Counted from the stretch's first letter, positions 37,984 to 61,345 are shown. The stretch: DNA of 64,000 bases from Phycisphaerae bacterium (GCA_020056715.1 JAGVHG010000040.1:75920-139919); one strand, 5' to 3'. The notes: generated by a model not told the origin, from the letters alone. A program made the numbers and translations.

Positions 37984-38176
37984 GCCGTCGTCTGCCTACC
38001 ACCGCGAACCGCAATCATTGGTCGGTATTCTGTGTACAAGTTCTCATGCGCGCGTAGGTATGCGTGCGATTTGACCGAAAATAGGGATGTGGATACCGTA
38101 GAATGGGCGGAAAGCGTGGTTTTTCTAGGACGTTCACACCCACTCCGTGCCAGGCATGTTCGTTGGGAAGTCGTTG

Positions 38177-39376: not shown

Positions 39377-39382
39377 GATCAG

Positions 39383-39417
39383 GCTATAGGTTGTAGGCTG
39401 TAGGCATTAGGCAATAC
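39383..39417. repeat. heptamer array GCTATAG GTTGTAG GCTGTAG GCATTAG GCAATAC
   Basis: Period-7 repeat in the gspF-gspG spacer. Same unit family as 16753-16787. Confidence 0.65.
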
Positions 39418-39434
39418 TTGAGAGGAACAGTTCT

Positions 39435-39899: not shown

Positions 39900-39911
39900 G
39901 AGTATGACGTG

Positions 39912-40011
39912 GATTGTCAATTGCCAATTGCCGATTGCCAATTAAAAAACGCAAGTCCACGCGCGTTCCTATTTGGCAATTGGCCCGCCTTCGGCGGGGC
40001 AATTGGCAATG
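39912..40011. repeat. inverted heptamer arrays (GATTGTC AATTGCC AATTGCC GATTGCC AATTAAA ... GGCAATT..GGCAATT GGCAATG) around GC hairpins
   Basis: The left array (39912-39946) and reverse-complement units (39975-39981, 39998-40011) flank the CCCGCC-TTCG-GGCGGG hairpin (about 39984-39998). The element fills the gspG-gspH gap. Confidence 0.7.
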
Positions 40012-40013
40012 AC

Positions 40014-41479: not shown

Positions 41480-41493
41480 GGAACCGAACAACG

Positions 41494-46006: not shown

Positions 46007-46010
46007 AACC

Positions 46011-46028
46011 CACTGCTGACCAGCAGTG
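46011..46028. repeat. intercistronic hairpin CACTGCT-GACC-AGCAGTG
   Basis: Lies 13 nt upstream of ATG 46041. Near-identical to 13628-13648. Confidence 0.55.
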
Positions 46029-46040
46029 ACAGACGAAGTT

Positions 46041-47582
46041 ATGGATCGACGTACGAAAATCCTGGTAAGCGCGTTCGCCGTACTGGTCGGCGCGGGGTTG
46101 GTCCGCGGGGTCGTCTATCCCACCTGGATTCAGCCGTTACTGACGATCGACGAGCGGATCGTGGAACGTCAGAAGGTGTTGGATGTGCTGGAGGCGCAAG
46201 AGTCGGCCGTGCAACAGGCGCGGCACGAGTACAAGGCATTGGTTGCGCGAGTCGGCTCGTTCGACGTGAGTAAGGTCGAAACTGAGGTGCGCGATCGGCT
46301 CAATCACCTGATCGAGAGGCACCATTTGCAGGATGCGGCGGTGTCTCCCAGTCGGCCCGTGGAGGACCGTAAGACGGGCCTGTGGTCGACGTCGATTTCG
46401 GTGTCAGCGACCGGTACTTTGGAGTCGACCATCACGTTCTTGAAGGACCTCGCGGAGCTTCCCTACGTCGCGCGGGTCGGGAACCCGGTGCTGTCACCGG
46501 TGGGTGGCGGGCGAAAAGGCCCCAAACAAGACCTCCTCAGCCTGCGGGTTCCCGTGGACTTGCTGGTCCTGCCGCAAAACCGGGTGGCGGGTAGCATCCA
46601 GGTAGCGGAACTGACGCATCCCGATACGTACATTCGTCACCAGGGTCGCGAATACGCTCAGATTTGGAACCGTAAGCCGTTCTCGGAATACGTACCGCCG
46701 ATTCCGCTAAGGGCGACGGTGGCGCGAACCGTGAACGTGGAAAAGGGCCAGCCGGCCACACTCGAAGGGGCGGTGAGCGGCGGAGACGGCGAGTACACCA
46801 TCCGCTGGTCGCCGTCGGAGGGATTGAGCGATCCGACGTCGCTGCGTCCGACGGTGGATACCAGCAAAGCGGAAACGAAAACATACACCCTCACCGTCAC
46901 GGACGGCAGCGGTGGAACGTCCGAGGCCGTAGCGATGGTCACGGTGCGCGAGCCGCGGCCCGAGCCTGTGGCGGTGGTGAAACCACCAGAGCCTGTCCCC
47001 CCGCCGCCGCCGCCGGGTCCCAAGCGTTGGCCCGACGGGCGGAATATGACCATCGCCATGGCCTTATTGCGTACTTTGGGTCCGGAGCGGTTGGACGAGT
47101 TCATGGTATACAACAAACAATCCAAGCAGACCAACTATTACAAGGTCGGCGATGAATTCGACGGAGGAGAATTGGTTTTTGTGCATCAGCGCGGCGGGGT
47201 TGTGCGTAGAAATGAGGACTACTACGTGTATCCGATCGGGGCGAGCCTCGATCAACCCGTGGAAGCGAAGGCCGCCGACGACTATCCGGAGTTGAAGTCC
47301 GCGGCGGACAAGATTCGCGAGATTCGTGAGGCGCGGCAAAAGGCGATGCCCGCGCCGCCGGCAGCGCCCGAGGCACAGCCGCCGCCGACCGAGGCACCGG
47401 TGGAGAGCGGGCGGAAGATCGAGGATGCCAAGACCGAGCCGGAGCTGGAAGTGAAGCCCGCGGAAGACGCGAATGCTAAACCGGCTGAACCGGCGAGCGC
47501 GGATGAGAAACCGGCGGAGTCCAAGACGGCCAAGCCGAAGCGTCGCCCGAGTAGGCCCGTGACGCCGAAGAAACAGCCGTAG
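46041..47582 (+). CDS. PilO/GspM-like - Ig/PKD-like - PilP/GspC-HR-like fusion protein with Pro/Ala/Lys-rich tail
   Basis: TM helix (ILVSAFAVLVGAGLV), coiled coil and a PilO-like domain (ISVSATGTLESTITFLKDLAELPYV). An Ig-like module follows (EKGQPATLEGAVSGGDGEYTIRWSP..TYTLTVTDGSGG), then a beta domain (YYKVGDEFDGGELVFVHQRGGVVRRNEDYYVYPIG). Confidence 0.5.
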   Translation: MDRRTKILVSAFAVLVGAGLVRGVVYPTWIQPLLTIDERIVERQKVLDVLEAQESAVQQARHEYKALVARVGSFDVSKVETEVRDRLNHLIERHHLQDAAVSPSRPVEDRKTGLWSTSISVSATGTLESTITFLKDLAELPYVARVGNPVLSPVGGGRKGPKQDLLSLRVPVDLLVLPQNRVAGSIQVAELTHPDTYIRHQGREYAQIWNRKPFSEYVPPIPLRATVARTVNVEKGQPATLEGAVSGGDGEYTIRWSPSEGLSDPTSLRPTVDTSKAETKTYTLTVTDGSGGTSEAVAMVTVREPRPEPVAVVKPPEPVPPPPPPGPKRWPDGRNMTIAMALLRTLGPERLDEFMVYNKQSKQTNYYKVGDEFDGGELVFVHQRGGVVRRNEDYYVYPIGASLDQPVEAKAADDYPELKSAADKIREIREARQKAMPAPPAAPEAQPPPTEAPVESGRKIEDAKTEPELEVKPAEDANAKPAEPASADEKPAESKTAKPKRRPSRPVTPKKQP

Positions 47583-47621: not shown

Positions 47622-50600
47622 ATGAAACACAGACCGATCCGACGAACACGACGCCCCTTGGGGGTTGCAATTCTGTATTTGGCCGTGCTGGGGTCCGTCG
47701 GGAGCATGCCCTTCGCGCTTGCGCAGGTTCCCACCCAACCCGCCCAACCCACTCCACAGCCCGCGACTAAGGGACGTCGAACGAGCAACATAAAACCGCC
47801 TGTCCAGCCGCAACAAACGGACGAGCCAAAGACCGCGCCTGACGCCGAGGTGGAGACGCCCAAGGAGGCAGAGACCGCGCAACCGCAGACCCCGCCGCAA
47901 CCGATCCCACCACGCCCCGTGCGTCCGACGCCAGGCAAAGGGGTCGAACCGAGCGACGCAGCTGTCAAACCGACAATGCCGGAAGGCGCTCTTGATCCCG
48001 CTCGCGGCGCGGTCGCGCAACCACAGCCACAGCCAACAGCGGAAGCCCCGAAGAAACCCGATGAATCCGAAGTGGACCCGGCCAAGCGGGTGGAAGAGGC
48101 GCGTAAGGCAGCCGCGGATCGCGCCGCTGCGCGGCGTGCTCGCACCGGACAAGGTACGGACGCGACGGGTAGACCAATTGCGGGTCAGCCCGCCACGGGT
48201 GCGACGGGCTTACCTTCGGGAGCGGGTTCTATGCCGGTCATGCCGCCGTCGGGGGAGACGATGGGGGAGGTTCCGCCGGACGGCGAGCCGTCGACGACGC
48301 TCAACATCGCTCCGGCGGAAAGCGACGTGCCGCCGGAAGCGAGGATGTACGGATTCAGCATCAAGGACGGTACCTACGAACAGCTCATTGCGGGGTTCGC
48401 CCGGCAGACGGGGCTGGGCGTGATCGGCGATGCGCCCAAGGATGGGAAGGTGACGTTCGTTACTACAGAGACATTGACTTTCGATCAAACGCTCGCTCGG
48501 GTTCAGATGCTACTGTTCAAGTACAAGCCGCACGAGCCGTATTGGATCGTGCGCAACGAGACAAACCTGGAGGTCAGCAAGGTCAACGATATTTACCGCG
48601 TCCTTCCGCGGAACCGGATGTTTCGGAACTTGGACGACTACCGCGCTGCCAACCTATCAAGTGACGAGCTGGCATTGGTAGTGTATACGCCCAAGAGCGG
48701 TTCGATCGCCGCTTTGAAGCAAGTTCGGGACTGGCTGCCGGATTATGTGCGGGTGACGCCACTCGATGAGCAAAACAGCGTCACCATCTTCGCTCTGGTG
48801 AGCGACATCGAGAAATATCTCTGGTTGCTGGACTGGATCAGCGGAGCGCGCACGGACCCGCGGACGCTCACGAAGATCGAGGTCCGTCACCTCTTGGCAA
48901 GCGAGGCGCTCAACCGGATGCGACAATTGATGGACATCGAGGGGGCGCCGCAGGGTAGGCCGCAGACGGCGGTTCCGAAGCGCGCTGCGCGGGAGCCGAG
49001 CGCCTTGGACACCATGCCCGAGCCGCCCGTAACGGTGATCGCCGACGACGCCCAGGGGATCCTCCTGGTGCGGGCGATGCAGGACAAGATCGACGAGATC
49101 AAGCTGCTTCTGCCCTTCATCGACGTGGACCTGTCGACACAGTCACCGGCGCCTGTGATCGTAAAGCTGCAATACGTGGACGCGAATGATATGATCGCCA
49201 CGCTGCAGCAAATCCTGTCCGCGTCGTCGACGCCGCCGGGGACGCCTACGCCGCCCAGGGCGAAGAAGGGAAAAAAGGGCCTTCCCACGCCCGCGGGGAC
49301 GGCGCCTATGGGCGCATCGGGTACAGCTACAGCTCCGGAGAGCATCACGCTTCTGCCTCACCCCTCCGACAACGCGATCATAGTGCTCGCCGACGAAGAG
49401 GGGGTGGCGCGGGTCCGTGAGTTGGTCACGCTTTTCGACGTGTCCACGACGATGGACCCGATACGGCTTCCGTTGTCCCACGCGGACGCGAATGAAGTGC
49501 TCAATACCATTACGGCCGTGTTGGGAGCGGCTAACCCCAAAGGGAAGCCGGCCCTCGACCGGTTTACCGTGGTCGTCGATCCCGCCGGGGATGCGGTGTG
49601 GTTCAGAGGCGGCGACAAGGACCTCGCCAGGGTGAAGGGCTTGATCGAGACGATCGACGTCGCGGGGGAGCCGGTGTCGCTCCGGGTGGTGATGTTGAAG
49701 TACCAGCAGCCGACGTTCGTATCGAACATGCTGCGAGAGTTCGAGGGGACCAACTCGGCGTCCCCGACGCCGGCGCCGGCGGGGAGAAAACCAAAGAGCA
49801 AACGGGCCGTGTCGGTTCAGACTTCGAAGTTCACTCCGGACGATACGACGAACAGGTTGTTCATTATTTGTACGGAGGACGATTGGGCGCGGTACCAGCC
49901 GCTGATTGCGCAGCTCGACCGGCCGGCGGATGACGGGGAGGTGTTCGTTCGCCTGCCGCTTCAGCACGCCGAGCCGAACACGGCCATCGACCGTCTTGTA
50001 GCGATGCTCGGTGACGGGGAGAGCGTGCGGTTCATCCCCAGCGAGGGGAGCATCCTCGTGGTGGGAGCGAAGCCTCAGCAGATCGAACGCATCAAGGTGT
50101 TTATCGCCGAAGTGGACAAGCCGTCGCATGTGGAGCAGCGGACGTTCGAGATTCGGCACGCCAATCCGGCGGACATCAAGTCGGCGATCGAGAGTCTGAT
50201 CGCGGACATGCCGGTGAAGGCCCCACGACGGCCAAGGAAGGGCGACGCCGGTAAAAGTGGGGTAGCGACGGAGGCGACTGTGACGGACCAGTTGACCATC
50301 GTCCAACTCGGCCAACGGCTTGTGGTCCAGACCACGCCGGCGCGGATGGAGCAGGTTGCGGCGTTGATTGCCGAGTTCGACGTCGAGGAGGCGAAGACGG
50401 AACTGAAAGTGTACGCCGACTTCCCGCCGGGTACGAATATTGAGTCCATCTCCGATACGGTTTCGTCAGTGTTCACGGCGACTGGACGAGGCTCCAAGCG
50501 GGGAAACAAGGACGTCGCGGCGGTGGAGGGGCCGAAGTTCATCCCCCAGCCGGCGTCCGGCAAACTCGTGGTGATCGCCGATCCGTCGGTGTTCCCGGAA

Positions 50601-53600
50601 ATCGAGCGGCTCCTGAACGTGCTGCGGCGTGAGGTAGAGGCGAGGCCGACGATCGTGGCGTTCGTGGAGGTCAAGCACGCCGACCCCGCGGATTTGGTGG
50701 AAAGCATCAAGCCGCTGCTGGATATCAAGATTCGCGGGCTGGTGGAGTCGGGGGAACTGGACGAGGCCGGTGAAGAGGGCGTGGCCGCGCCGAAGATGCC
50801 CAAACGTCGGTCGGCACCCTCTCAAACCTCCAGCGACCGTTATCACCTTTCGCCCGATTCGCGGAACCACCGGATCGTGATTGCGGCGCCGCAGGTTGTC
50901 GTCGATCAAGCGAAGGCGCTGATTGCCCAGTTCGACACCCCGGGCGAAAAGCCTGTCTTCAAGACGGTGGAACTGGCCAACGCGGCGCCGGACGAAATGG
51001 TCCGCGCGGTCAAGGAGATGATGGGCAGGCCGGTGGCACGCAAGGCTGTGAGCACGGGCAAGGGGAAAGCGCCGGTCATGCCGGCCGTGGATTTAGGCGG
51101 CGGAAGCGAAGGGCTGTCGGTCGTCGAGGCGCCGGGTGGCGGCGCGGTGATCCTGCACGGGCAGGCGGCGGAGGTCGCTCAGGCCGAGGATTGGATCAAG
51201 CAACTCGACGCGATGTCCACGCGAGGGCGGACCATCAAGGTTTACGAGATCAAAAAGGCGGACATGGCCAAGCTGTTCGACCTGGTGGTGAACGTAGTCG
51301 GCAGTTCGTCGCCGGCGATGGGCGGTAAGGGCGTGCCGCAAATGCCGCATAGGTCCGCGGGCAAAGGTGCGGACACAAAAGAAAAAGACATTGAGGAGGA
51401 GTTCACCACAAGCAAGACGTTCTCCGGGGCGGACTTGTACATCCAGGCCGATTTGATCGGGAAGACGATGTTGGTTGCCGCGACGCCCTCAAAGGTTGCG
51501 GAGATAGACGACATTGTCGCTCGCTTGGACAAGGGCACGGAGGAGGCGATCGGCAGGGTCATCGGGGCGGACAAGCCGACGCCGAAGTTGATGTACGACC
51601 TGAAGGAGGCCGACGCCATCGACGCGAAATATGCCCTGCGGGACGCGTTCGAGACCATGTGGGAGCCGCGCGATGAGCTTCCCCAGGTGGATGGCTTCGG
51701 GAGCGTGTTGATCGTGCGCTATCCGCACGATGAGCGCTTCGACGAAATCCAGGAATTCATCCGCAAGTACGCGGACAAGCCCGATCCGGAGAAGACCAAG
51801 ATCGTGGCTAAGTCCTTCCCGGCCCCGGCTGGACTCAGGGCTGAGGAAGCGGCGGCTTGGATCAAAATAAATCACCCGGAGATCGTGGTGGACTTGGTGG
51901 ACAAAACGCCCGGTAGCGACAAGCCGTACGAAATCGAACAGATTCGGCCGCTTGCACCCAAGAAAGCCAATCCTTGCGTGTTGCCGGGCGCTTTTCTCCG
52001 GGCGACGGACGCCCTGCTGGGAAGCATCGTCGGTCAGTCTCCACCGCAAAACGGTGCGGGAGGCCAGCCCGAAGCCCAACCATTACCTGAGGAGGAAGCG
52101 ACCGAGGATGAGCCGGAGGAGGAAGTCGCACCCATCCCCACCGGCGATGACATGATTCGGCGAGCGATCACGCCGATCGTTCCTCGGAAGAGCAAGAAGA
52201 CCACTGAGCCCCAAGCCGACGACAAGAGTAAGACGAGTGACAAGTCGAGTGACAAGCCGGGCGAAAAAGCGGACGACAAGAAAGGGCTGACGGGAGAGCG
52301 GATCGAAATCGAATACAACAACGTGGCCGGTGTGTTCGTGGTCAAGGGGCAAGCCGGCGACGTCAAAGAGGTTGATGATTGGCTCGATGAACTCAAAGAA
52401 GGGATTGAGGACTTCCCAGTCAAACCCGACATTCGCATCTTCCGCGTGCGGTACATCGACGTGGACTTGGCGCAGGACATCTTGGAGGAGATGTTCAACG
52501 CCACGAAGCAGCAAACGGCAATGCTGCAACAACAACAGCAGGCCGCGATGCGGGCACAGCAGCAGTTGCAGCAGCGCCAGGGACAGCAGGGACAGCAACC
52601 GGGGGCCAAGGGTCAGCCAGGCGACCAAGCAGGCCCCGGCGCTCCCGGCGCTCCGGGCGGTCGAAACGCGCAGCCGCAAGCGATCCAAGCGCAGCTGGCG
52701 CCGCCGCAGCTTCCCCAGGCGGGCGTACGCATCTATCCCAACCGGCGCGATCGCACTTTGATCCTGCGCGCCGAGACCAGCCAGTATCCGCAGATCGAAG
52801 AACTCCTCGCCACGATCGATCAGCCCAAGCCCATCGACAGCTTCATGCGGACCTATCCGCTCAAGAACCTCAACGCCGCCGAAGTGGAAGAAATCCTGCG
52901 GGAAATGCTGGGGATCGGCAAGGAAGGCGCTCGTCCCAAGGCCGGGGCCGCTCGGACTCCAGGCGTACCGGGTGCACCGGGCGCGTCGGCCGCTCCGGCG
53001 GATCAACTTCCGCAGACGATTTTACAGGAGACGGTCTCCGGGGCGTCACAATTAGGCGTCGATCCTGCGGACATCAAGCTGTTCAGCAGCGAGGTGTCCA
53101 ATACGGTGATGGCCATGGCCCCGAAAAAGGCGTTGGATTTCATCGGGGAGTTAATCAACAAGCTGGAAAGCGAGGACATCCCGCAACGAACCACTAAGTA
53201 CTACGAGTTGAAGCACGCGGACGTAGAAGACGCGGCGGCGTATCTGGAGAGTCACTTCGAGGAGGCGTCGGGGCCGCGTAAAACGCGAAAAGGCGGCGGG
53301 GATGCCGCGGCCGCAGGCCCGGGCGGAAAATCCCTCAACACTCCGAGCTTCGTGCCCTATCCGCGATTGAACTTTCTGACGGTCCAAGCGACGGCGGCGC
53401 AGATCGAAGAGATCGACAAGATCGTCGAACGGATCGACGTGAGCGGGGGTACGGACAAATGGGAGGACGTGGCATTGGCCCACGCCGACGCCAAACTGGT
53501 CGCGGATACGCTGACGAAGATGTTCACCGACAAGAGCGGAGGGGGTACTGTTCCGTCGAAGGCGACGTCCAAGGGCGCGGCCATCCCCAAGTTTATCGGC

Positions 53601-55712
53601 GAGGAGGGCGGCGGGATCGTTTTGTTCAGCGCCCCACCGAGCCTGCGCGAGCAAATCCTGACGACCATTGCCAAGCTCGAAGAGCAATACAAAGAGACGC
53701 GCACCCCGCGAATTATCGAGCTAAAAAACGCCAAGCCCAGCGCCCTGGCGGAGGCGATTGAGAAGGCCTACGACGCGAAAAAAGCGGGAGGTAAGTCGGG
53801 CGGATCGACCCCCGCGCGATTTACGGTGACGGCGCATGATTCGTCCAAGCGGTTATTTGTGATCGCCGATGACGAAACTTTCAAGGAAGTCGAGGCTTTG
53901 GCGAGACTGCTGGATGACAAGCCGGGTACGATCGGGGTGGAGTTTCGGATTTATCCGCTAAAGTTCGCCAGCGCCAAGACCGTTCACGCGCAGATGACCA
54001 AGCTGCTGAAAGACTACCTGTCGCGGTTGGGTCAGGATGCCAATAAGATTGAGGCGTTCAGCGTCGAGCCGGAAGAATCGTCCAACTCGCTCATCGTGCT
54101 CGGCGGTCCCACGGTGTTCGGTTTCCTGGAGGAGAACCTTCGGAAGATCGACACGCCGGAGATGAAGACGAGCCTGCCGGCATCGCTGATTGTCCCCCTG
54201 AGCAACGCGAACGCCGCGGAAGTAGCGGGGAATATCCAAAAGCTGTACGCCGGGAAGGAGCAACCGCTGGGAGTGACCGCGCCGCAAGTGGAGGCGAACC
54301 CGTCGACGAACACGCTCATCGTGCGCGGCACCCAGTCCCAGATCAACGAGATCAAGAAGGACATCATCGACCCGCTGGAAGCGCAAGACAAGCTCGCCAG
54401 ACAGGTGCAGGTCAAGCCGATTAAGTTGAAGTTCGCCGACCCCGCCGGGGCCGCGGAGGTGATCAACAAGCTCTTCCGTTCCGAAGGCAAGAACGCCCGC
54501 GATCAGGTGCAGGCGTCAGCGGATTTCACCTCCAATTCGGTGGTCGTGGCGGCCTCGCCGGAGAACTTCAAACGCATCGAGGATTTGATCGCCCAGATCG
54601 ACAGCGCCGAGACAAGTCAACAGGACGTCCACGTGGTGGAGATCAAGCACGCCGACGCCTCGTCCGTGGCACAGACCTTGACCGAAATCTTCGTCCGCGC
54701 GGCGGCAAAACAGATGGGCAATCAAGCGCCGCCGATCACCATCTCGGCGGTGGCGGGATCGCGGGCGCTGCTCATTAAGTGCAAGACCGACGACTTCGCC
54801 CGCATCAAGGAGACGATCAAGGAGCTGGACAACGAGGACGTCGGCACCGGCGGCGAAGTCCGCGTGGTGACGCTCCTCTACGGAGACGCCAACGAAATCT
54901 CACAAGCGATGGAAAAGTATCTGACCAACTCCGGGGCGGCTGGCGGTCGCGGACCTCGGTTGATGGGCGACGCTCGGATTAGCTCTATGCCGCAGAGCAA
55001 TAGCGTGATGATCAGCGCCGCCAAGGAGGAGGTCGAGCGCTTGGTCGAGATCGCGCACGGGATGGATGTGGCCGGCGAAAAGGGCAGCGTCCCGCAGATC
55101 ATTCCGCTGAAGTACGCAAATGTTGGTATGATCCTTCCCAGCGTGCAGGAGGTGTTCACGGAGACGCGAGGCGGCGGTCGGCGGAATCAGCCCGCGCCGG
55201 TGATCGTGGCCGACGAGGGCAGCAATGCGTTGATCGTGCGGGCTTCCCAGACGGACCTGGCCGCGATCCAGGGGATCGTCACCCAGTTGGACACCGAGGA
55301 CAAGAAAGATAAGACTCCGTTCCGCATTATTAAGGTAGCGGCGGGAATCAACGTGACGGATCTGGCGGAGCAGGTGGAGACGACATTGAACGAAACCTCG
55401 CGGTCCCAGGCCGGTTCGGGGCGCGGGGCGCAGGTTCGGAGCGTCGCGGTGACGCCGAACGTGCGGACGAATAGCCTTGTCGTGTCGGGGTACGCGGCTA
55501 TGTTCGATCAGGCCGAGGCCCTGGTTCGCAAGCTCGAGGAGATGGGTCCGGTGGGCAATCGAGTGACGGCCGTCGTTCCGCTCAAGAGGACCAAGGTCGA
55601 TGAAATCCAACGGCTCATTGACCAGTTGACGCAACAGCCCGGCGGGACGGGTGATTCACGGCGCGGCGGCAGTCGTCCGCGGCCGACGAGTCGCCCGCGA
55701 TCGGGACCGTGA
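47622..55712 (+). CDS. giant secreted secretin-N-repeat protein (N0-like + ~25 N1-type modules, no secretin beta-barrel)
   Basis: Signal peptide (..GSMPFALA-QV) and a Pro/Gln-rich linker. N0/STN-like domain at aa 243-318. Repeated modules then carry the signature h.LK.A.A..h...L..hh ... D.(R)TN.LhV.A......I..LI..LD, e.g. VEIKHADASSVAQTLTEIF..SRALLIKCKTDDFARIKETIKELD. The protein ends without a barrel domain. Confidence 0.75.
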   Translation: MKHRPIRRTRRPLGVAILYLAVLGSVGSMPFALAQVPTQPAQPTPQPATKGRRTSNIKPPVQPQQTDEPKTAPDAEVETPKEAETAQPQTPPQPIPPRPVRPTPGKGVEPSDAAVKPTMPEGALDPARGAVAQPQPQPTAEAPKKPDESEVDPAKRVEEARKAAADRAAARRARTGQGTDATGRPIAGQPATGATGLPSGAGSMPVMPPSGETMGEVPPDGEPSTTLNIAPAESDVPPEARMYGFSIKDGTYEQLIAGFARQTGLGVIGDAPKDGKVTFVTTETLTFDQTLARVQMLLFKYKPHEPYWIVRNETNLEVSKVNDIYRVLPRNRMFRNLDDYRAANLSSDELALVVYTPKSGSIAALKQVRDWLPDYVRVTPLDEQNSVTIFALVSDIEKYLWLLDWISGARTDPRTLTKIEVRHLLASEALNRMRQLMDIEGAPQGRPQTAVPKRAAREPSALDTMPEPPVTVIADDAQGILLVRAMQDKIDEIKLLLPFIDVDLSTQSPAPVIVKLQYVDANDMIATLQQILSASSTPPGTPTPPRAKKGKKGLPTPAGTAPMGASGTATAPESITLLPHPSDNAIIVLADEEGVARVRELVTLFDVSTTMDPIRLPLSHADANEVLNTITAVLGAANPKGKPALDRFTVVVDPAGDAVWFRGGDKDLARVKGLIETIDVAGEPVSLRVVMLKYQQPTFVSNMLREFEGTNSASPTPAPAGRKPKSKRAVSVQTSKFTPDDTTNRLFIICTEDDWARYQPLIAQLDRPADDGEVFVRLPLQHAEPNTAIDRLVAMLGDGESVRFIPSEGSILVVGAKPQQIERIKVFIAEVDKPSHVEQRTFEIRHANPADIKSAIESLIADMPVKAPRRPRKGDAGKSGVATEATVTDQLTIVQLGQRLVVQTTPARMEQVAALIAEFDVEEAKTELKVYADFPPGTNIESISDTVSSVFTATGRGSKRGNKDVAAVEGPKFIPQPASGKLVVIADPSVFPEIERLLNVLRREVEARPTIVAFVEVKHADPADLVESIKPLLDIKIRGLVESGELDEAGEEGVAAPKMPKRRSAPSQTSSDRYHLSPDSRNHRIVIAAPQVVVDQAKALIAQFDTPGEKPVFKTVELANAAPDEMVRAVKEMMGRPVARKAVSTGKGKAPVMPAVDLGGGSEGLSVVEAPGGGAVILHGQAAEVAQAEDWIKQLDAMSTRGRTIKVYEIKKADMAKLFDLVVNVVGSSSPAMGGKGVPQMPHRSAGKGADTKEKDIEEEFTTSKTFSGADLYIQADLIGKTMLVAATPSKVAEIDDIVARLDKGTEEAIGRVIGADKPTPKLMYDLKEADAIDAKYALRDAFETMWEPRDELPQVDGFGSVLIVRYPHDERFDEIQEFIRKYADKPDPEKTKIVAKSFPAPAGLRAEEAAAWIKINHPEIVVDLVDKTPGSDKPYEIEQIRPLAPKKANPCVLPGAFLRATDALLGSIVGQSPPQNGAGGQPEAQPLPEEEATEDEPEEEVAPIPTGDDMIRRAITPIVPRKSKKTTEPQADDKSKTSDKSSDKPGEKADDKKGLTGERIEIEYNNVAGVFVVKGQAGDVKEVDDWLDELKEGIEDFPVKPDIRIFRVRYIDVDLAQDILEEMFNATKQQTAMLQQQQQAAMRAQQQLQQRQGQQGQQPGAKGQPGDQAGPGAPGAPGGRNAQPQAIQAQLAPPQLPQAGVRIYPNRRDRTLILRAETSQYPQIEELLATIDQPKPIDSFMRTYPLKNLNAAEVEEILREMLGIGKEGARPKAGAARTPGVPGAPGASAAPADQLPQTILQETVSGASQLGVDPADIKLFSSEVSNTVMAMAPKKALDFIGELINKLESEDIPQRTTKYYELKHADVEDAAAYLESHFEEASGPRKTRKGGGDAAAAGPGGKSLNTPSFVPYPRLNFLTVQATAAQIEEIDKIVERIDVSGGTDKWEDVALAHADAKLVADTLTKMFTDKSGGGTVPSKATSKGAAIPKFIGEEGGGIVLFSAPPSLREQILTTIAKLEEQYKETRTPRIIELKNAKPSALAEAIEKAYDAKKAGGKSGGSTPARFTVTAHDSSKRLFVIADDETFKEVEALARLLDDKPGTIGVEFRIYPLKFASAKTVHAQMTKLLKDYLSRLGQDANKIEAFSVEPEESSNSLIVLGGPTVFGFLEENLRKIDTPEMKTSLPASLIVPLSNANAAEVAGNIQKLYAGKEQPLGVTAPQVEANPSTNTLIVRGTQSQINEIKKDIIDPLEAQDKLARQVQVKPIKLKFADPAGAAEVINKLFRSEGKNARDQVQASADFTSNSVVVAASPENFKRIEDLIAQIDSAETSQQDVHVVEIKHADASSVAQTLTEIFVRAAAKQMGNQAPPITISAVAGSRALLIKCKTDDFARIKETIKELDNEDVGTGGEVRVVTLLYGDANEISQAMEKYLTNSGAAGGRGPRLMGDARISSMPQSNSVMISAAKEEVERLVEIAHGMDVAGEKGSVPQIIPLKYANVGMILPSVQEVFTETRGGGRRNQPAPVIVADEGSNALIVRASQTDLAAIQGIVTQLDTEDKKDKTPFRIIKVAAGINVTDLAEQVETTLNETSRSQAGSGRGAQVRSVAVTPNVRTNSLVVSGYAAMFDQAEALVRKLEEMGPVGNRVTAVVPLKRTKVDEIQRLIDQLTQQPGGTGDSRRGGSRPRPTSRPRSGP

Positions 55713-55822: not shown

Positions 55823-58800
55823 GTGGAGGCAATGGTGATGAGGATGAACGGACAAACGAGGACGGGATGCGTCGGCCGGTGGCGATGGATATTCGCCGTG
55901 GGCGTCTTCGCGGCGAGTTTGTTGTTGGTGGACGGCTCGGCGAGAGGTCAGGCCGAGCGCAGTTCCGAACAAGCGCAAACGCAACAGCCGCCGAGCCCGC
56001 CGGCCCCACAACGCAAGGGTGCAGTGCAGCCGTCGCAACCTGCGCAACGCCCACAGCAACCACGCGGACAAAAACCGCCGGCACAGCCCGATCGGATCAG
56101 CGAGCTGGTGCGCGGACTCGACCCCGCGGTCTTGGCGCAGCTCGCCGGGGCGGAGGTGACGGCCGAGGTGGTCGGCGACCAAGTGATTTTGCAAGGCCCG
56201 GAGGAAGCGGTGAAGGCGATCGAACTGCTCATCCGAGCGCTGGAGGTCGAAAGCGAGTCGAAAGCGAAAGTCCTGCAGGTGGTCCAAGTCACGGAGCGTG
56301 ACGCCGTGGAGATCGCTCGGACCGTCCAACAGGCGGTGCGCGATGCGTTGGGATTCGCAGCGCAAAAACAGGAGGATAAGATCTCCGTCACCGCACTGTC
56401 ATCGAACATTCTATTGATAGCGGCGTCGCCGAAAGAAATCGACCAGGTGATCGACATCATCGAGCAGGTCGACGCGATTCCCGATCCGTTGGGCAAGGTG
56501 GAGTTGATGCGCTTCGACGTCGTGCATCGCAAGGCGGGCGACGTGGCCAAGGAATTGGAGAAGATCATCACCCAACTTCGCGTCGCCGCTGGGCAGAAAA
56601 AGGACCAGGGGAAGCTGCAAATCATTCCCAACAACTCCAACAACACCATTACCGTCACCGCCCGCGAAACCGAGCGCGAGAAGATCCAGGCCCTTATCGA
56701 GAATATCGACGTGGAGCCGAAAAAGGGCTGGGGCGAAATTCGCCTGACCATCTTCCCGTTGCTTCATTCCAAAGCGAGCGATCTCCAGAAAGTCATCCAG
56801 GATTTGATCAAATCGGAGGCCAAGGCGGACAAGGACGCCGTACAGGAGATGATCCAGCGCCTGCGCATAAGCAAGGCCGACGCGACCGGCAAGATGACCG
56901 ACCTTGCACCGATCGATCTTCAGCGCCAATTGCGGATCATCTCTGACACGGGCACGAACAGCTTGATCGTGGCGACGATCGAGGAGAACGTCGAGCCTAT
57001 GGGCGAGTTGATCCGCCTGCTCGACGGCGTGCCGCTCGCGGAGGAGTTCGCGGTCAAGCTGTTTCCCCTTCGCTTCGCCGACGCGGAGACGGTCAACAAA
57101 GTGCTCAAGGAGATGTTCGATTCCGGCAAGAAGCTGCCTGAGGACCCCAACGGCGGCGGAAAGGGCGGCGTCCCCACGGGTTCCGAGGGGCACGCCCTGG
57201 TATACAACGTAGGTCTGGCCACGGACTTGCGCACCAACACGTTGATCGTCTCCGGTCGCCCCGAGCAGTTGGGGCTGGTGGAGACGGTCGTCGGTGAACT
57301 GGACCGCCCCGCGACGGCCCTGAAGTTCCCCTTGCGGCTGATTCCCTTGGAGTACAACGACGCGACCGGGTTTGGGAAGATGGTGACGGAGTTGTTCGAC
57401 CAACGGATGAAGACGGTCGAGGCTACGAACGCGGGCAAGTCCGCCGCGGAACGCGAGCGCATCTTTCTCAGCGTGGACCTCCGCACCAACTCCTTGATCG
57501 TTTCGGCCTCGGAGGAGAACTTCAACGAGATTGTCGCCATCGCCCGGCAGTTGGATACGAAGCCGGCGAAGCTGTTCGACCAAATCCGAATCGTGCCGCT
57601 AGCCAGACTCACCGCCAAGGACATGAAGACCAAGATCGAGGACTTGTGGAAGCGCAAGGCCGATCTGCGCAAGGAGGGCAAGCTGCTCGAGGATCTGCCC
57701 ATCGTGGCCTTCGATGAACGCAGCAACTCGCTCGTGGTCGCCTCCAACCGCGAGGACTTCGACGAAATCCTGCGACTGGTGACTCTGCTCGAGGCCCAGC
57801 CGCTGATCGAAGATATCCGGCTGTTCAAGTTGGAGTTTGCCGACGCGGCCGTCCTTTCGGGGATGTTGGACGAGTTGTTCAAGGGTCTCGCTGGTCAATC
57901 GGAATCCTTCAAGGCGCCCACGATCATTCCCGACTCGCGAAGCAACGCGTTGGTCGTGGCGGGCGCCCGCGACGCGACGGAGCGCGTGGCCGAGGTGGTT
58001 CAACGGCTGGACGTGGAGGCCGGACCGCTCACCGCGGTTTTCAAGGTGTATCCCCTGAAGAACGGCTCGGCCAATCAGCTTGCCCAGCGGATGCAAAAGC
58101 TGTTTGACTCCCGTAAGGAGGGCGAAAAGACCGACCGGACGCCGGTGGTGATTCTGTCGGAGGAGTCGTCCAATAGCCTGGTGGTCAGCGCCTCGCGCGA
58201 CGATCATGACGTGATCGACGGCCTAATCGATCTGCTGGACAAACCGTCGAGTCTTGCCCAGCAATTCGAGATCTTCCCGCTGAAGATGTCCAAGGCCAAG
58301 ACGGTGGCGGAAAAGCTGGACAGCCTCTTCAAAGCACAGGGCGAGGGAACGACGGGTCGGGCGGATGCCATCGCCACGCAGGCCGACGAGCGGACCAACT
58401 CGATCATCGTGTGGGCGTCGCCCTCGCAAATGGCCAACATCGGCGAGGTCATCGCCAAGCTCGACACCTCCACGCCGGCCGTGGAGATGATGATTAAGGT
58501 TATCCAACTCAAGCAGGCGCTAGCGACGGATTTCGCCAAACTGCTCGAGGAGACGCTGATTGGCGACAAGTCCGGCGGCGATGAGGAGCGTGCGGTCATC
58601 GTGTCGTTTCTGGAAAAAAACCCGAACGGCAAGGAAATCCTACGCAAGTTGTTGCGCCAGGACATCCGCATCAAGCCCGACCCTCGGACCAACTCCGTGA
58701 TGGTCATGGCCCCGGCGGACAGTATGTCGATGCTGGAGGCGATGATACTTGACTTCGACCGCATCCGCCCGGTGACCTCCGAAATCCGCCTGTTTCCGCT

Positions 58801-60379
58801 CATTAACAGTGACGCGAAGACCATGGTGGAACAGCTCACGGAACTGTTTAAGGCCGAAGGAGGGACTAAAGAGGGCGAGGCGAAAAGCCAACTGGTGTTC
58901 GGCGCCGCGGCCGAGGGATTGGACCTTGCGAGCGTCGGCCAAGAGCTGCGCTTCGCCGCCGATACCCGCACCAACACGCTCATTGCGGCGGGAGCACAAG
59001 TATACCTGCGGATGGTCGAGGACCTGGTGCGCTATCTGGATTCGCAGGAGGCCGAGGAGCGGGTGAACGAGGTGTACCAAGCCAAGTTCCGCCCCGCTTC
59101 CGACCTCGCCACCGCAGTCCAGGGGTTCATCAAGCAGGAGGTTGACGTGATCGGCGAGGCCGCGGACACGGAGGCGAAGACGAGGAAACAAGAACGACAA
59201 GTGTCCGTCGAAAGCGTAGGAAAGGAAGAGAAGGGGAGCAGCAGTTTGCTGGTGGGGACTAGTCGCCGCGCGTATCAGCGGACGATGGACATGATCCAGT
59301 CCCTCGATCGACCCGAACCGCAGGTCATGATCTCCGTACTGATCGCCGAAGTGTCGCTGACCGGCGGCGTAGACTTGGGGATCGAGTTCGCCGGACAAGA
59401 CCTGACCTTCTCCAAGAAGGCCGTGGTCGGCCCCAACGGCATCGTGCAAGGCAGCGACTTCGACTTCGTCGGCGGCACGGACCTCGGGGCCGCCGGTCTG
59501 GGTTTGGGGGGGTTCAACTTCACTATCACCGGCGAGGACTTCAGTTTCCTCTTGCGGGCCTTGCAACAAGACAGCCGGCTCGAGGTGCTGTCGCGCCCGG
59601 TCCTCATGGTTCGCAACGGCGAAGAGGGCAAGATCACCATCGCCGACAAGGTGCCCATTGTGGCGTCCACGAACCTCAATCCGACCGGTCAAACACAATC
59701 GACCATCGGTCGGGAGGACGTGGGCATCATCCTGACCGCAACGCCGCACATCAGCCCGGACGGTTACGTCACCATTAAGATGAAGCAGGAGATATCGAGC
59801 ATCGGCGCCAACGTCCAACTGACCGAGGGGGTCGCTTCGCCGATTTTCTCCACCCGCGAGGTGGAGACCAATGTGACCATCCGCGACGGGGAGACGGTGG
59901 TGATCGGCGGGCTGATCCAGTCGAGCGATGGACAAACTGAGAACAAGGTCCCCATTCTGGGGGACATTCCGTGGCTTGGCGTGTTGTTCCGCACCACTTC
60001 AGCCACCACCCGCAGGACGGAGCTTATGGTGGTTCTAACCGTCGACATCCTACGCACCGACGAGGACGTGAAGCAGATGTCGGTGGAGCAGCGCGACAAG
60101 TTCTTGCTCCCCGACACCATCCGGCAAAGTCCGTTGATGGAAGGTCTGCGGATCACGCCGCAGGAACAGGCCCTTGGACCGAAGGAGGACCGCGCGTCCG
60201 CCAAGGTGCCCCCGCCCGGTCCGGCGATCGAACCGCGACGCGAGGATCGCGATCTCTATGGACCGCGTCCCAAGACCTATGGGCCGGTGATCACTCGCCC
60301 GACCTCGACGAGCACGACGCAGGGCCCGGTTTACGGCCCCAACATCGCCCGCAACAAGGATTCGGTCGCCCACCCATGA
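55823..60379 (+). CDS. gspD: secretin (GspD/PilQ family) with 12 N-type modules plus a leading half-module
   Basis: Signal peptide. 12 Secretin_N-like modules. C-terminal secretin domain at about 59315-60053 (VLIAEVSL.., LEVLSRPVLMVRNGEEGKITI, PILGDIPWLGVLFR, ELMVVLT). ATGs at 55832/55838/55844 are more likely starts than GTG 55823. Confidence 0.9.
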   Translation: MEAMVMRMNGQTRTGCVGRWRWIFAVGVFAASLLLVDGSARGQAERSSEQAQTQQPPSPPAPQRKGAVQPSQPAQRPQQPRGQKPPAQPDRISELVRGLDPAVLAQLAGAEVTAEVVGDQVILQGPEEAVKAIELLIRALEVESESKAKVLQVVQVTERDAVEIARTVQQAVRDALGFAAQKQEDKISVTALSSNILLIAASPKEIDQVIDIIEQVDAIPDPLGKVELMRFDVVHRKAGDVAKELEKIITQLRVAAGQKKDQGKLQIIPNNSNNTITVTARETEREKIQALIENIDVEPKKGWGEIRLTIFPLLHSKASDLQKVIQDLIKSEAKADKDAVQEMIQRLRISKADATGKMTDLAPIDLQRQLRIISDTGTNSLIVATIEENVEPMGELIRLLDGVPLAEEFAVKLFPLRFADAETVNKVLKEMFDSGKKLPEDPNGGGKGGVPTGSEGHALVYNVGLATDLRTNTLIVSGRPEQLGLVETVVGELDRPATALKFPLRLIPLEYNDATGFGKMVTELFDQRMKTVEATNAGKSAAERERIFLSVDLRTNSLIVSASEENFNEIVAIARQLDTKPAKLFDQIRIVPLARLTAKDMKTKIEDLWKRKADLRKEGKLLEDLPIVAFDERSNSLVVASNREDFDEILRLVTLLEAQPLIEDIRLFKLEFADAAVLSGMLDELFKGLAGQSESFKAPTIIPDSRSNALVVAGARDATERVAEVVQRLDVEAGPLTAVFKVYPLKNGSANQLAQRMQKLFDSRKEGEKTDRTPVVILSEESSNSLVVSASRDDHDVIDGLIDLLDKPSSLAQQFEIFPLKMSKAKTVAEKLDSLFKAQGEGTTGRADAIATQADERTNSIIVWASPSQMANIGEVIAKLDTSTPAVEMMIKVIQLKQALATDFAKLLEETLIGDKSGGDEERAVIVSFLEKNPNGKEILRKLLRQDIRIKPDPRTNSVMVMAPADSMSMLEAMILDFDRIRPVTSEIRLFPLINSDAKTMVEQLTELFKAEGGTKEGEAKSQLVFGAAAEGLDLASVGQELRFAADTRTNTLIAAGAQVYLRMVEDLVRYLDSQEAEERVNEVYQAKFRPASDLATAVQGFIKQEVDVIGEAADTEAKTRKQERQVSVESVGKEEKGSSSLLVGTSRRAYQRTMDMIQSLDRPEPQVMISVLIAEVSLTGGVDLGIEFAGQDLTFSKKAVVGPNGIVQGSDFDFVGGTDLGAAGLGLGGFNFTITGEDFSFLLRALQQDSRLEVLSRPVLMVRNGEEGKITIADKVPIVASTNLNPTGQTQSTIGREDVGIILTATPHISPDGYVTIKMKQEISSIGANVQLTEGVASPIFSTREVETNVTIRDGETVVIGGLIQSSDGQTENKVPILGDIPWLGVLFRTTSATTRRTELMVVLTVDILRTDEDVKQMSVEQRDKFLLPDTIRQSPLMEGLRITPQEQALGPKEDRASAKVPPPGPAIEPRREDRDLYGPRPKTYGPVITRPTSTSTTQGPVYGPNIARNKDSVAHP

Positions 60380-60930
60380 CCACCGTCCAGGCGATGATAC
60401 GGCGAAGGTTTCGGTCGGTGGCGACATGCTTGGGCGTGTTCGCCTTGGTCACCGGCGGATGCCGTTCTTTGGGTAGGACGGACGCAAGCTCACCGCCGTC
60501 GTCGTCGCGCCCCATCCGCTCGGGCGACATTCACGGCGTGGTTTGTCTGTTCGATCAAAAGCCGTGGATCAGCGTCGATGCCGCGGGAGATCCCGATCCG
60601 GAGGGCATCCGCTATCGTGTCTTTCTCGACCCCGGCAAAGGTAAATGCGTTCTACGTGAAGGTTCGTTTCGTATTGAGATGTATCTGATCGATCGCACGG
60701 ACTCCGGCGATACTGAGCGTACGCTGGTGAGCGATTGGAATTATCCGACGAGCGAGCTTGGAACCGTTCTTTCCAAGATTCTCGGCAAAGGCTATCACCT
60801 TCAACTGCGCTGGGCGAAGAAAGACACCGCCGGGCACGAGATCGAAGTGGTCACGCAGTTCATCGATCGATACGGCAACACCACGCGGTCGCCGACCAAG
60901 CGACTCCGCGTGCCGAAGTATTCGTCCTGA
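60376..60930 (+). CDS. lipoprotein, candidate pilotin/secretin accessory
   Basis: Lipobox-like LVTGGC after a basic/hydrophobic signal. Its ATG overlaps the secretin TGA (ATGA). The longer ORF-track version is an artefactual extension. Confidence 0.45.
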   Translation: MTTVQAMIRRRFRSVATCLGVFALVTGGCRSLGRTDASSPPSSSRPIRSGDIHGVVCLFDQKPWISVDAAGDPDPEGIRYRVFLDPGKGKCVLREGSFRIEMYLIDRTDSGDTERTLVSDWNYPTSELGTVLSKILGKGYHLQLRWAKKDTAGHEIEVVTQFIDRYGNTTRSPTKRLRVPKYSS

Positions 60931-61203: not shown

Positions 61204-61222
61204 GGCAACTCCGATGCTTATG

Positions 61223-61336: not shown

Positions 61337-61345
61337 ATACGGCCC

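What the first reader, a model, noticed from the sequence alone, without database searches (positions are those of the whole stretch)
55823..60379. Secretin with 12 N modules (about 1,160 aa) ahead of a canonical pore domain, plus a Pro-rich C-terminal tail
The C-terminal region (about 59315-60053) carries unmistakable secretin motifs (LEVLSRPVLMVRNGEEGKITI, PILGDIPWLGVLFR, ELMVVLT). It is preceded by 12 complete N1-type modules, compared with 3 in GspD. A tail of about 108 aa rich in Pro/Arg/Thr follows the barrel (nt about 60054-60376). By position this could be an S-domain-like pilotin or peptidoglycan contact.
Basis: partly seen in the sequence, partly recalled or inferred. Interest (0 to 1): 0.65.

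Follow-up and report, generated by a model that had tools for sequence, protein, structure and literature searches.

The report
Split giant secretin of a planctomycete
The 12-module secretin is real, but it is only the outer-membrane half of a two-gene giant secretin (about 34 ring-forming modules in all) in an uncultured Phycisphaerae-type bacterium, far more modules than in any secretin studied so far.

Summary
ORF 55823-60379 (1,518 aa) has a signal peptide, 12 Secretin_N modules, a canonical secretin pore and a 107-aa tail.

It is not a stand-alone secretin. It lacks the N0 domain and starts with a partial module (β2-β3-α2). The gene just upstream (47622-55712, 2,696 aa) has its own signal peptide, a secretin-type N0-N1-N2 N-terminus (fold match to XcpQ/GspD), 21 further N1 modules, no pore, and a terminal half-module (β1-α1).

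In related Phycisphaerae the same type II secretion (T2SS)-like operon (GspF, GspG, minor pseudopilins, GspK, PilM-like, X) carries one secretin gene of 3,400-4,700 aa with 34-48 modules at that position. So the window pair is the split form of a mega-secretin.

The design is standard in its clade: 104 of 120 homologues have exactly 12 modules. I found no paper describing it.

The tail is not plain low-complexity sequence. It carries a conserved triple-YGP block. A conserved lipoprotein-like gene (60376-60930) overlaps the secretin's stop codon and is a candidate pilotin.

Most likely the two proteins stack into one very long periplasmic conduit. Docking through the two complementary half-modules is predicted, not shown.

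The parts
55823..60379 (+). Secretin gene (1,518 aa): the pore-forming, outer-membrane half of the split mega-secretin
   Evidence: ORF. Pfam Secretin_N x12 plus Secretin. TIGR02517 GspD 551.5 bits against a cutoff of 351.35, best stretch aa 937-1420 on model positions 113-600.
55823..55951 (+). Signal peptide region (aa 1-43; the true start may be one of the in-frame ATGs a few codons downstream)
   Evidence: Basic n-region plus hydrophobic core WIFAVGVFAASLLLV, then ARG/Q. 91 of 107 full-length homologues have a signal-peptide-like N-terminus by a crude hydrophobicity/charge test.
55952..56098 (+). Pro/Gln-rich linker (aa 44-92)
   Evidence: 12 Pro and 12 Gln in 49 residues.
56099..56260 (+). 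N-terminal helix plus partial N1 module (β2-β3-α2; aa ~93-146); no N0 domain
   Evidence: Matches only model positions 37-79 of the module HMM. Conserved in 113 homologues. Column conservation is 0.63 against 0.65-0.73 for neighbouring full modules.
56261..59317 (+). Twelve complete N1-type (Secretin_N) modules (aa 147-1165)
   Evidence: Modules 10, 11 and 12 are positional orthologues of the last three modules of single-chain forms in 42, 33 and 37 of 43 proteins.
59318..60055 (+). Secretin pore (β-barrel) domain (aa 1166-1411)
   Evidence: PF00263 at aa 1246-1411, E 4.1e-47. Aligned to the end of TIGR02517.
60056..60376 (+). C-terminal tail (aa 1412-1518): conserved ~45-aa segment, variable Pro-rich spacer, conserved triple-YGP block
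   Evidence: Alignment of 71 family tails. All 71 have at least 2 YGP motifs. Consensus YGPKPKTYGP.I.RP..T.T.....VYGP.IAR.
47622..55712 (+). Pore-less partner (2,696 aa): the inner, N0-bearing half of the mega-secretin
   Evidence: Pfam Secretin_N in 18 stretches (E 1.8e-177) and no PF00263. 21 full modules with the family HMM. About 75 homologous clusters of 2,300-3,545 aa, all pore-less.
48324..49151 (+). Secretin-type N0-N1-N2 array at the N-terminus of the partner (aa 235-510)
   Evidence: AF2 model, pLDDT 77. Foldseek hits: XcpQ N0-N1-N2 5mp2 E 1e-10, GspD 3ezj E 5e-9, isolated GspD N0 4jtm TM 0.76 and rmsd 3.5 Å. A sequence-only PDB search found nothing.
55554..55709 (+). C-terminal half-module (β1-α1, aa 2645-2672) plus basic Gly/Ser/Arg tail of the partner
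   Evidence: Matches model positions 3-42 only. Consensus ..T.I....N....IQRLIDQLT conserved in 70 homologues. Joined to the secretin's partial module it gives one full-length module hit of 27.9 bits. AF2 on the two halves gives pLDDT ~84 and 81-87.
60376..60930 (+). Lipoprotein-like gene (184 aa); candidate pilotin or partner of the tail
   Evidence: ATGA overlap with the secretin stop. N-terminus ...CLGVFALVTGGC. Conserved directly after the secretin in L005 (70%), L003 (54%), L004 (57%) and L006 (34-36%). No Pfam or NCBIfam hit.
38147..47582 (+). Rest of the T2SS-like operon: GspF (38147-39376), GspG (39435-39899), H-like (39909-40775), I-like (40772-41479), J-like (41476-42468), GspK-like (42469-44406), PilM/GspL-like (44396-46006), bitopic 518-aa protein (46026-47582)
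   Evidence: Pfam. NCBIfam: GspG equivalog 118.4 bits against a cutoff of 88.85. Gene gaps of -11 to +58 nt. Same gene order in L006 and L007.

Best explanation
ORF 55823-60379 is the outer-membrane half of a secretin that this lineage encodes as two adjacent genes. The window is from an uncultured Phycisphaerae-type planctomycete.

Shown:
- The pore protein has a signal peptide, a partial N1 module, 12 N1 modules, a secretin barrel and a motif-bearing tail. It has no N0.
- The upstream protein has a signal peptide, N0-N1-N2, 21 full N1 modules in total and a terminal half-module. It has no pore.
- Relatives have one gene with N0, 34-48 modules and a pore at the same place in the same T2SS-like operon.

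Inferred:
- Both proteins are exported by Sec and multimerise.
- Their N1 modules stack as rings, as in GspD and PilQ.
- The partner's ring stack sits under the secretin's, giving one continuous conduit of about 34-35 rings. At about 3 nm per ring this is of order 100 nm, and the secretin's own 12 rings are about 35-40 nm.
- N0 lies at the inner-membrane end, where it can meet the assembly platform (the PilM/GspL-like protein and the 518-aa bitopic protein).
- The conduit lets a GspG-type pseudopilus machine work across the enlarged planctomycetal periplasm.

More speculative: the two chains are joined because the partner's C-terminal β1-α1 completes the secretin's N-terminal β2-β3-α2 into one N1 fold.

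The triple-YGP tail, near the inner leaflet of the outer membrane, is proposed to bind the translationally coupled lipoprotein, which would act as a pilotin or belt.
For: Domain content of both ORFs.

N0 fold on the partner only, with no N0 hit on the pore protein.

Synteny: L006 and L007/L008 have GspF, GspG, three minor pseudopilins, GspK, PilM and X, followed by one secretin gene of 4,461 or 4,305 aa where the window has two genes.

Length and module count: 2,696 + 1,518 = 4,214 aa and 33 full modules plus one split module, against 3,365-4,681 aa and 34-48 modules in single-chain forms.

Colinearity: the secretin aligns to the last ~1,330 aa of every single-chain form (25-31% identity, 282-534 bits). 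There are junction-spanning HSPs near the diagonal, and the N0 region aligns to the N-terminus.

The split is conserved, not accidental. About 75 partner clusters and at least 120 secretin clusters exist, with the same gene pair in L002, L003 and L005. Both usually have their own signal peptides.

Half-modules: they cover complementary HMM ranges. The joined halves give one full hit of 27.9 bits, against 12-14 bits each alone and ~0 for shuffles. Both are conserved like ordinary modules. AF2 folds the pair with pLDDT ~84 and 81-87 and pTM 0.57, and the partner's β1 is modelled as a strand whose only possible partners are the secretin's strands. Structural neighbours include secretin N domains over 105-112 columns, which spans both halves.

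P0195 carries the same two halves in one chain, separated by the basic tail, a signal-peptide-like stretch and a Pro-rich linker.

T2SS assignment: GspG equivalog passes, and GspK-type domains are present.
Against: No experiment or multimer model supports stacking of the two proteins. Stoichiometry is unknown.

The complementation model came from an unpaired alignment of a fold AF2 knows well. Foldseek matches of the composite are not significant (E 0.2-1.2).

MAFFT aligned the secretin's own N-terminal helix onto the partner's α1. The secretin's partial module may therefore already have an α1-like helix and lack only β1.

The half-modules are no more conserved than ordinary modules, so there is no special interface signal.

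The split module could not be placed against a single orthologous module in single-chain forms.

A tube of ~100 nm is an extrapolation. Modules could fold back, form concentric sleeves or be flexibly spaced.

No GspE ATPase is in the window. The substrate is unknown. Whether this organism's periplasm is wide is not known.
Confidence: 0.72

Rival explanations
1. Stand-alone long secretin. The 1,518-aa protein forms a complete 12-ring secretin by itself. The upstream 2,696-aa protein is an independent periplasmic component, for example a GspC-like adaptor, an outer sleeve or an envelope spacer, and not an axial extension of the same channel.
For: The two proteins are separately exported. Deinococcus shows that secretins can be surrounded by extra ring-forming subunits and can act as envelope spacers (PMC10828601). 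The half-module complementation is only weakly supported.
Against: N0, the normal N-terminal domain of a T2SS secretin, is on the partner and missing from the pore protein. Relatives fuse both parts colinearly in one chain at the same operon position. In those relatives the partner's modules must lie axially below the 12 pore-proximal ones.
Confidence: 0.15
2. The architecture is as in the best explanation, but the machine extrudes a surface fibre (a type IV-pilus-like filament) or takes up DNA or polymers, and does not secrete folded proteins.
For: The platform protein is PilM-like, close to the PilM subfamily cutoff (125.6 against 133), and resembles the Amuc_1101 pilus family. GspF also scores well on PilC models. 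Thermus PilQ, the known multi-ring secretin, serves pili and DNA uptake (PMC5745081). Secretins of the GspD family can also export slime polymers (PMC12475490 abstract).
Against: The major pilin passes the GspG equivalog cutoff and fails the pilin models. A GspK-type minor pseudopilin is present. The secretin scores below the PilQ cutoff (257.9 against 284.35) and has no AMIN domain hit. No retraction ATPase is in the window.
Confidence: 0.25
3. The split is an artefact or a pseudogene: one mega-secretin gene broken by a sequencing error or a recent mutation.
For: The two ORFs are adjacent on the same strand, 110 nt apart and in different frames. P0195 shows that a one-ORF version of the same junction exists.
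Against: The split form occurs in about 75 partner clusters and at least 120 secretin clusters from many independent assemblies, at 55-100% identity. Conserved termini flank the break. The downstream half has a signal peptide of its own. Conservation is ordinary throughout.
Confidence: 0.02

Closest known systems
T2SS secretin GspD / PulD / XcpQ (TIGR02517; structures 3ezj, 5mp2, 6hcg, 5wq8)
   Same: Same pore domain and the same N1-type modules, with an N3-like module abutting the barrel. It sits in an operon with GspF, GspG, minor pseudopilins and GspK. The partner's N-terminus has the GspD/XcpQ N0-N1-N2 fold.
   Different: GspD has N0 plus 3 modules in one ~650-aa chain. Here there are 12 modules on the pore protein and N0 plus 21 more on a second protein. 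There is no N0 on the pore chain. The tail is a YGP-motif extension, not a recognisable S-domain.
Thermus thermophilus PilQ (PMC5745081)
   Same: A secretin whose periplasmic part is lengthened by extra βαββα ring modules so that it spans an unusually wide periplasm. This is the best functional analogy.
   Different: [quoted passage not shown] It serves type IV pili and DNA uptake. Here there are 12 rings on one chain and about 34 in the pair, in a T2SS-type operon, and nothing has been studied experimentally.
Deinococcus radiodurans T2SS (DR_0774 with DR_0940 cap and DR_1364 belt; PMC10828601)
   Same: A precedent for a secretin part that is normally a GspD domain being encoded as a separate subunit. 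Also a precedent for a non-canonical lipoprotein replacing a classical pilotin, and for the secretin acting as an envelope-spanning spacer.
   Different: There the separate part is the extracellular cap, not the periplasmic N-domain stack. The secretin keeps the canonical N0-N3.
Single-chain mega-secretins of Phycisphaerae MAGs (e.g. P0197 4,681 aa, P0204 4,426 aa, P0227 4,305 aa; auto-annotated 'type II secretion system protein D')
   Same: Same operon, same position, N0 at the N-terminus, pore at the C-terminus, and 34-48 N1 modules. The last ~1,330 aa are colinear with the window secretin.
   Different: One polypeptide instead of two. Only 20-31% identical. Most lack the YGP tail and the homologous downstream lipoprotein. 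I found no publication describing them.
T3SS basal body (SctC secretin plus SctD/SctJ rings)
   Same: Different proteins, each built of ring-forming α/β modules, stack into one continuous trans-periplasmic channel. InvG N0-N1 is among the fold hits.
   Different: The inner rings there are unrelated inner-membrane proteins with a different motif order. Here both partners are made of the same secretin N1 module and derive from, or fuse into, a single secretin.

Membership tests
Secretin superfamily (PF00263-containing outer-membrane channels) | C-terminal secretin β-barrel domain | tested here: met
   PF00263 at aa 1246-1411, E 4.1e-47, 160 bits against a cutoff of 27.5.
Secretin superfamily (PF00263-containing outer-membrane channels) | One or more N1-type (PF03958) modules directly N-terminal of the barrel | tested here: met
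   12 stretches, E 8.9e-111. Module 12 ends at aa 1165, next to the barrel.
Secretin superfamily (PF00263-containing outer-membrane channels) | Sec signal peptide (periplasmic export) | tested here: met
   Basic n-region plus hydrophobic core, read from the sequence. A heuristic test is positive in 91 of 107 homologues. No dedicated predictor was run.
Secretin superfamily (PF00263-containing outer-membrane channels) | Assembly into a 12-15-mer ring in the outer membrane | not testable with these tools
   No multimer prediction or experiment was available.
T2SS secretin GspD (NCBIfam TIGR02517, equivalog) | Whole-protein HMM score above the curated cutoff | tested here: met
   551.5 bits against 351.35, best stretch aa 937-1420 on model positions 113-600. 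Caveat: repeats inflate the score. The pore-less partner also passes, with 444.2 bits from 13 stretches.
T2SS secretin GspD (NCBIfam TIGR02517, equivalog) | N0 domain at the N-terminus of the same polypeptide (contact to GspC and the platform) | tested here: not met
   No N0/STN family hit at E<=1. The N-terminus is a partial N1 module. The N0 fold is on the upstream protein.
T2SS secretin GspD (NCBIfam TIGR02517, equivalog) | N0-N1-N2-N3 architecture (three N1-type modules) | tested here: not met
   12 full modules plus one partial.
T2SS secretin GspD (NCBIfam TIGR02517, equivalog) | Encoded with T2SS core genes (GspE, F, G, H-K, L, M, C) | tested here: inconclusive
   GspF, GspG (equivalog passes), H/I/J-like pseudopilins, GspK-like and PilM/GspL-like genes are present. 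GspE is not in the window. The GspC and GspM equivalents are unidentified; the 518-aa bitopic protein has no family hit.
T2SS secretin GspD (NCBIfam TIGR02517, equivalog) | C-terminal S-domain binding a pilotin lipoprotein | tested here: inconclusive
   A conserved tail and a conserved, translationally coupled lipoprotein-like gene are present. Neither resembles known S-domains or pilotins by sequence. Binding was not tested.
Type IV pilus secretin PilQ (NCBIfam TIGR02515) | HMM score above cutoff; AMIN domain(s) at the N-terminus | tested here: not met
   257.9 bits against a cutoff of 284.35. No AMIN hit in Pfam.
Single-chain Phycisphaerae mega-secretins (unnamed; database entries only) | N0, 34 or more N1 modules and a pore in one polypeptide at the end of the GspF-to-PilM operon | tested here: not met
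   Operon position and content match, but here the content is divided between two polypeptides, each with its own signal peptide.

The most novel reading that the evidence does not exclude
The two proteins are locked head-to-tail by reconstituting one N1 domain from halves carried on different chains. The resulting tube of about 35 stacked rings (of order 100 nm and roughly 7 MDa if 15-meric) would be by far the longest secretin channel known. It would have evolved, together with single-chain versions of up to ~48 modules, to carry a type II secretion pseudopilus machine across the enlarged planctomycetal periplasm. Secretin length would then act as a molecular ruler of periplasm width.
Probability: 0.3. 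Interest if true: 0.85.

Novelty: new variant of a known kind. Interest (0 to 1): 0.7.

Why it matters
Studied secretins have 2-6 periplasmic rings. Six rings in Thermus PilQ were called exceptional (PMC5745081). A clade in which 12 rings on the pore chain is the norm changes the known range of this machine: about 34 in the two-gene form and up to ~48 in one chain.

It gives a concrete, testable link between envelope geometry and secretion-system architecture in Planctomycetota, whose cell plan has long been debated. Cryo-ET should show long tubes under outer-membrane pores.

The split and fused forms are a natural experiment on how ring stacks are joined.

It also exposes an annotation pitfall. 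A pore-less protein passes the GspD equivalog threshold purely through repeated N domains.

Tried and rejected
- Sequence-only PDB search of the partner's N-terminal region found nothing relevant. The fold-level search was needed.
- A second split-type junction inside the partner (aa ~1395-1606) was not supported by the module HMM (2.2 bits).
- The positional-orthology test for the split module was inconclusive. Only the three pore-proximal modules map cleanly onto single-chain forms.
- An unpaired alignment with flanking modules was misaligned by MAFFT because of the repeats, and I discarded it (A3). A first minimal alignment also misplaced the secretin's N-helix (A4). The trimmed version A5 was used.
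- Extra conservation of the half-modules, as an interface signal, was not found.
- A 12-module block duplication (partner block 2 against the secretin's 12 modules) gave no diagonal signal, so the equal count looks coincidental.
- The 110-nt spacer between the two genes folds no better than shuffles (z -0.69). There is no promoter-like site. One terminator-like hit lies inside the signal-peptide coding region and is probably chance.
- Seven full-text literature searches found no description of planctomycetal giant or split secretins. The only Planctomycetota genomics paper that mentions secretin does so in passing. Subscription journals are not covered.
- A cluster look-up found only MAG sources and automatic names, and no cultured host.
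- The genome-contig scan gave five loci, all Phycisphaerae or Planctomycetota MAGs.

Full report
**1. Observation**

The window has an uninterrupted + strand ORF at 55823-60379 encoding 1,518 aa.

- Pfam reports Secretin_N (PF03958) in 12 stretches (E 8.9e-111) and one Secretin pore domain at aa 1246-1411 (E 4.1e-47).
- NCBIfam's GspD equivalog model scores 551.5 bits against a cutoff of 351.35. Its best stretch (aa 937-1420) covers model positions 113-600. The PilQ, SctC and MshL models stay below their cutoffs.
- An HMM built from eight of the window's own modules recovered all twelve, including the four not used for training.
- A family-trained HMM places them at aa 147-1165 with linkers of 0-4 residues.
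- The tail after the barrel is 107 aa, with 15% Pro, 9% Arg and 8% Thr.

**2.

The secretin has no N0 domain. After the signal peptide and a Pro/Gln-rich linker, it begins with a partial module that matches only the second half (β2-β3-α2) of the module model.

The ORF immediately upstream (47622-55712, 2,696 aa) is built of the same modules.

- Pfam finds 18 Secretin_N stretches (E 1.8e-177) and no pore. The family HMM finds 21 full modules.
- It has its own signal peptide and a long Pro-rich region.
- An AF2 model of aa 235-510 (pLDDT 77) matches the N0-N1-N2 region of XcpQ (5mp2, E 1e-10), GspD (3ezj, E 5e-9), PulD and InvG.
- The isolated GspD N0 domain 4jtm superposes with TM 0.76 and rmsd 3.5 Å.

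So the secretin's normal N-terminus is on the upstream protein and its C-terminus is on the downstream one.

**3. Context**

Both genes close a tightly packed operon (gaps -11 to +58 nt before the partner gene, then +39 and +110):

- GspF
- GspG (equivalog cutoff passed)
- H-, I- and J-like pseudopilins
- a 645-aa GspK-like protein
- a PilM/GspL-like protein
- a 518-aa bitopic protein without family hits

These assignments rest. No GspE is in the window.

**4. Relatives**

- The secretin has at least 120 homologous clusters (55-100% identity, 1,240-1,843 aa). All come from Planctomycetota or Phycisphaerae metagenome assemblies. 104 of the 120 have exactly 12 full modules, and seven (~1,830 aa) have 16.
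- The partner has about 75 pore-less homologous clusters of 2,300-3,545 aa.
- The gene pair recurs in L002, L003 and L005.
- More distant hits to the partner are single polypeptides of 3,365-4,681 aa that carry many Secretin_N domains plus the pore, and in some cases N0. They have 34-48 modules.
- In L006 and L007/L008 the operon order is identical to the window. One such gene (4,461 or 4,305 aa) sits where the window has two.
- The window secretin aligns colinearly with the last ~1,330 aa of every single-chain form (25-31% identity). Junction-spanning HSPs lie near the main diagonal, and the N0 region aligns with the N-terminus.
- Its modules 10, 11 and 12 are the best match to the third-last, second-last and last modules of 42, 33 and 37 of 43 single-chain proteins.
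- The pair totals 4,214 aa, with 33 full modules plus one split module. This falls within the single-chain range.

I conclude that the window encodes the split form of a mega-secretin. The tight, closely related split clade nested among more divergent single-chain forms suggests fission. The direction was not tested.

**5. The break point**

The partner ends in a first-half module (β1-α1, aa 2645-2672) plus a basic Gly/Ser/Arg tail, conserved in 70 homologues. The secretin's partial module is conserved in 113 homologues.

- Joined in silico, the halves give one full-length module hit (27.9 bits, model positions 2-79). Each half alone gives 12-14 bits on its own half. Wrong orders give two partial hits, and shuffles score ~0.
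- Both halves are conserved about as well as neighbouring full modules (0.49 against 0.53-0.61, and 0.63 against 0.65-0.73). They are maintained, but not unusually constrained.
- AF2 on a minimal construct of the two halves, with an unpaired block alignment, gives strand-helix for the partner part (pLDDT ~84), a disordered linker, and helix-helix-strand-strand-helix for the secretin part (pLDDT 76-87). pTM is 0.57.
- Its structural neighbours are KH-like folds and secretin N domains (EscC 3gr5, XcpQ 4ec5, GspD 3oss and 3ezj; rmsd 3.5-4.0 Å over 105-112 columns). The E-values of 0.2-1.2 are not significant.
- P0195 (uninterrupted ORF in L006) contains the same two halves in one chain. They are separated by the basic tail, a signal-peptide-like stretch and a Pro-rich linker.

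Split-domain complementation is thus a coherent prediction with modest support. As a caveat, MAFFT aligned the secretin's own N-terminal helix onto the partner's α1, so perhaps only β1 is donated.

**6. The tail and a candidate pilotin**

The tail has three parts:

- a conserved ~45-aa segment (DILRTDEDVR.MS.EQRDKF.LPDSIRQSPLMEGLRI)
- a variable Pro-rich spacer
- a conserved block YGPKPKTYGP.I.RP…VYGP.IAR

All 71 aligned tails carry at least two YGP motifs.

A 184-aa gene (60376-60930) starts with an ATGA overlap on the secretin's stop codon and has a lipoprotein-like N-terminus. It is conserved in that position in L003, L004, L005 and L006.

L007, whose single-chain secretin lacks the YGP block, has a different lipobox-bearing gene there.

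It is not a test of binding.

**7. Mechanism**

Shown: the domain composition, the division of N0 and pore between two exported proteins, the operon, and equivalence to single-chain relatives.

Inferred from established secretin structures: N1 modules form stacked rings under the barrel, and N0 contacts the inner-membrane platform. The pair would then form one conduit of ~34-35 rings. At roughly 3 nm per ring (my estimate from GspD and PilQ structures) this is about 100 nm, of which the pore protein contributes ~35-40 nm.

The closest functional precedent is Thermus PilQ. [quoted passage not shown] Deinococcus shows that a GspD part can be a separate subunit and that a non-canonical lipoprotein can replace a pilotin (PMC10828601).

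The substrate (folded proteins or a fibre) remains open.

**8. Novelty**

This is a member of the secretin superfamily. It does not meet two defining features of canonical GspD: N0 on the same chain, and the N0-N3 architecture.

Database entries exist under automatic names. Seven full-text searches found no description.

I rate it a new variant of a known kind, of clear interest to secretion-system and planctomycete cell biologists.

Noticed in passing
window 47622-55712 (+): A 2,696-aa pore-less protein made of N0 plus 21 Secretin_N modules, directly upstream of the reported secretin. It turned out to be the other half of the same machine.
   Followed up: yes
window 60376-60930 (+): A 184-aa lipoprotein-like gene whose ATG overlaps the secretin stop codon (ATGA). 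It is conserved after the secretin in four related loci and has no family hit. It is a candidate pilotin or belt protein.
   Followed up: partly
window 51540-52418 (+) (partner aa 1307-1599): A ~290-aa stretch without recognisable modules. It contains an amphipathic/hydrophobic segment (CVLPGAFLRATDALLGSIVGQ) followed by an acidic and then a Lys/Ser-rich low-complexity run. P0195 has an equivalent gap (aa 1097-1266), while most single-chain forms do not. My idea that it is a second split-type junction was not supported.
   Followed up: partly
L006 about 18200-18400 (P0195 aa ~2735-2800): A 4,461-aa single ORF keeps, at the position of the window's gene boundary, the basic tail, a signal-peptide-like stretch (MAQFAPRYAPLATALLSLAIAQA) and a Pro-rich linker. 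It is either a pre-fission state or a re-fusion by stop-codon loss. An assembly error is not excluded, because there is only one contig.
   Followed up: partly
window 47622-55712 (+), annotation issue: The pore-less partner passes NCBIfam's GspD 'equivalog' cutoff (444 against 351 bits) only by summing 13 repeated N-domain matches. Public records accordingly name such proteins 'type II secretion system protein D'.
   Followed up: yes
window 39909-44406 (+): The minor pseudopilins are all much larger than usual: H-like 288 aa, I-like 235 aa, J-like 330 aa and GspK-like 645 aa. The same holds in L006 and L007. This may scale with the long conduit.
   Followed up: no
P0010, P0011, P0014, P0015, P0018, P0020, P0030; locus L002 7280-12778: A sub-clade of the secretin family has 16 instead of 12 full modules (~1,830 aa). 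It is still paired with a pore-less partner.
   Followed up: partly
window 20597-22066 (-): An RCC1-repeat protein with an IPTL-CTERM sorting motif (Pfam PF18203). It is unrelated to the operon.
   Followed up: no
window 60988-63725 (-): Genes of an Fe-S cluster assembly (isc/hsc-type) cluster lie downstream on the opposite strand and mark the end of the secretion operon. IscX-like (60988-61320) and HscA/Hsp70 (61755-63725) have Pfam hits. The ORF at 61346-61864 looks ferredoxin-like by eye only and was not scanned.
   Followed up: no
window 55891-55918 (+): A terminator-like hairpin with a T-run lies inside the secretin's signal-peptide coding region. One such hit was found against 0.3 expected from shuffles, so it is probably chance.
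   Followed up: no
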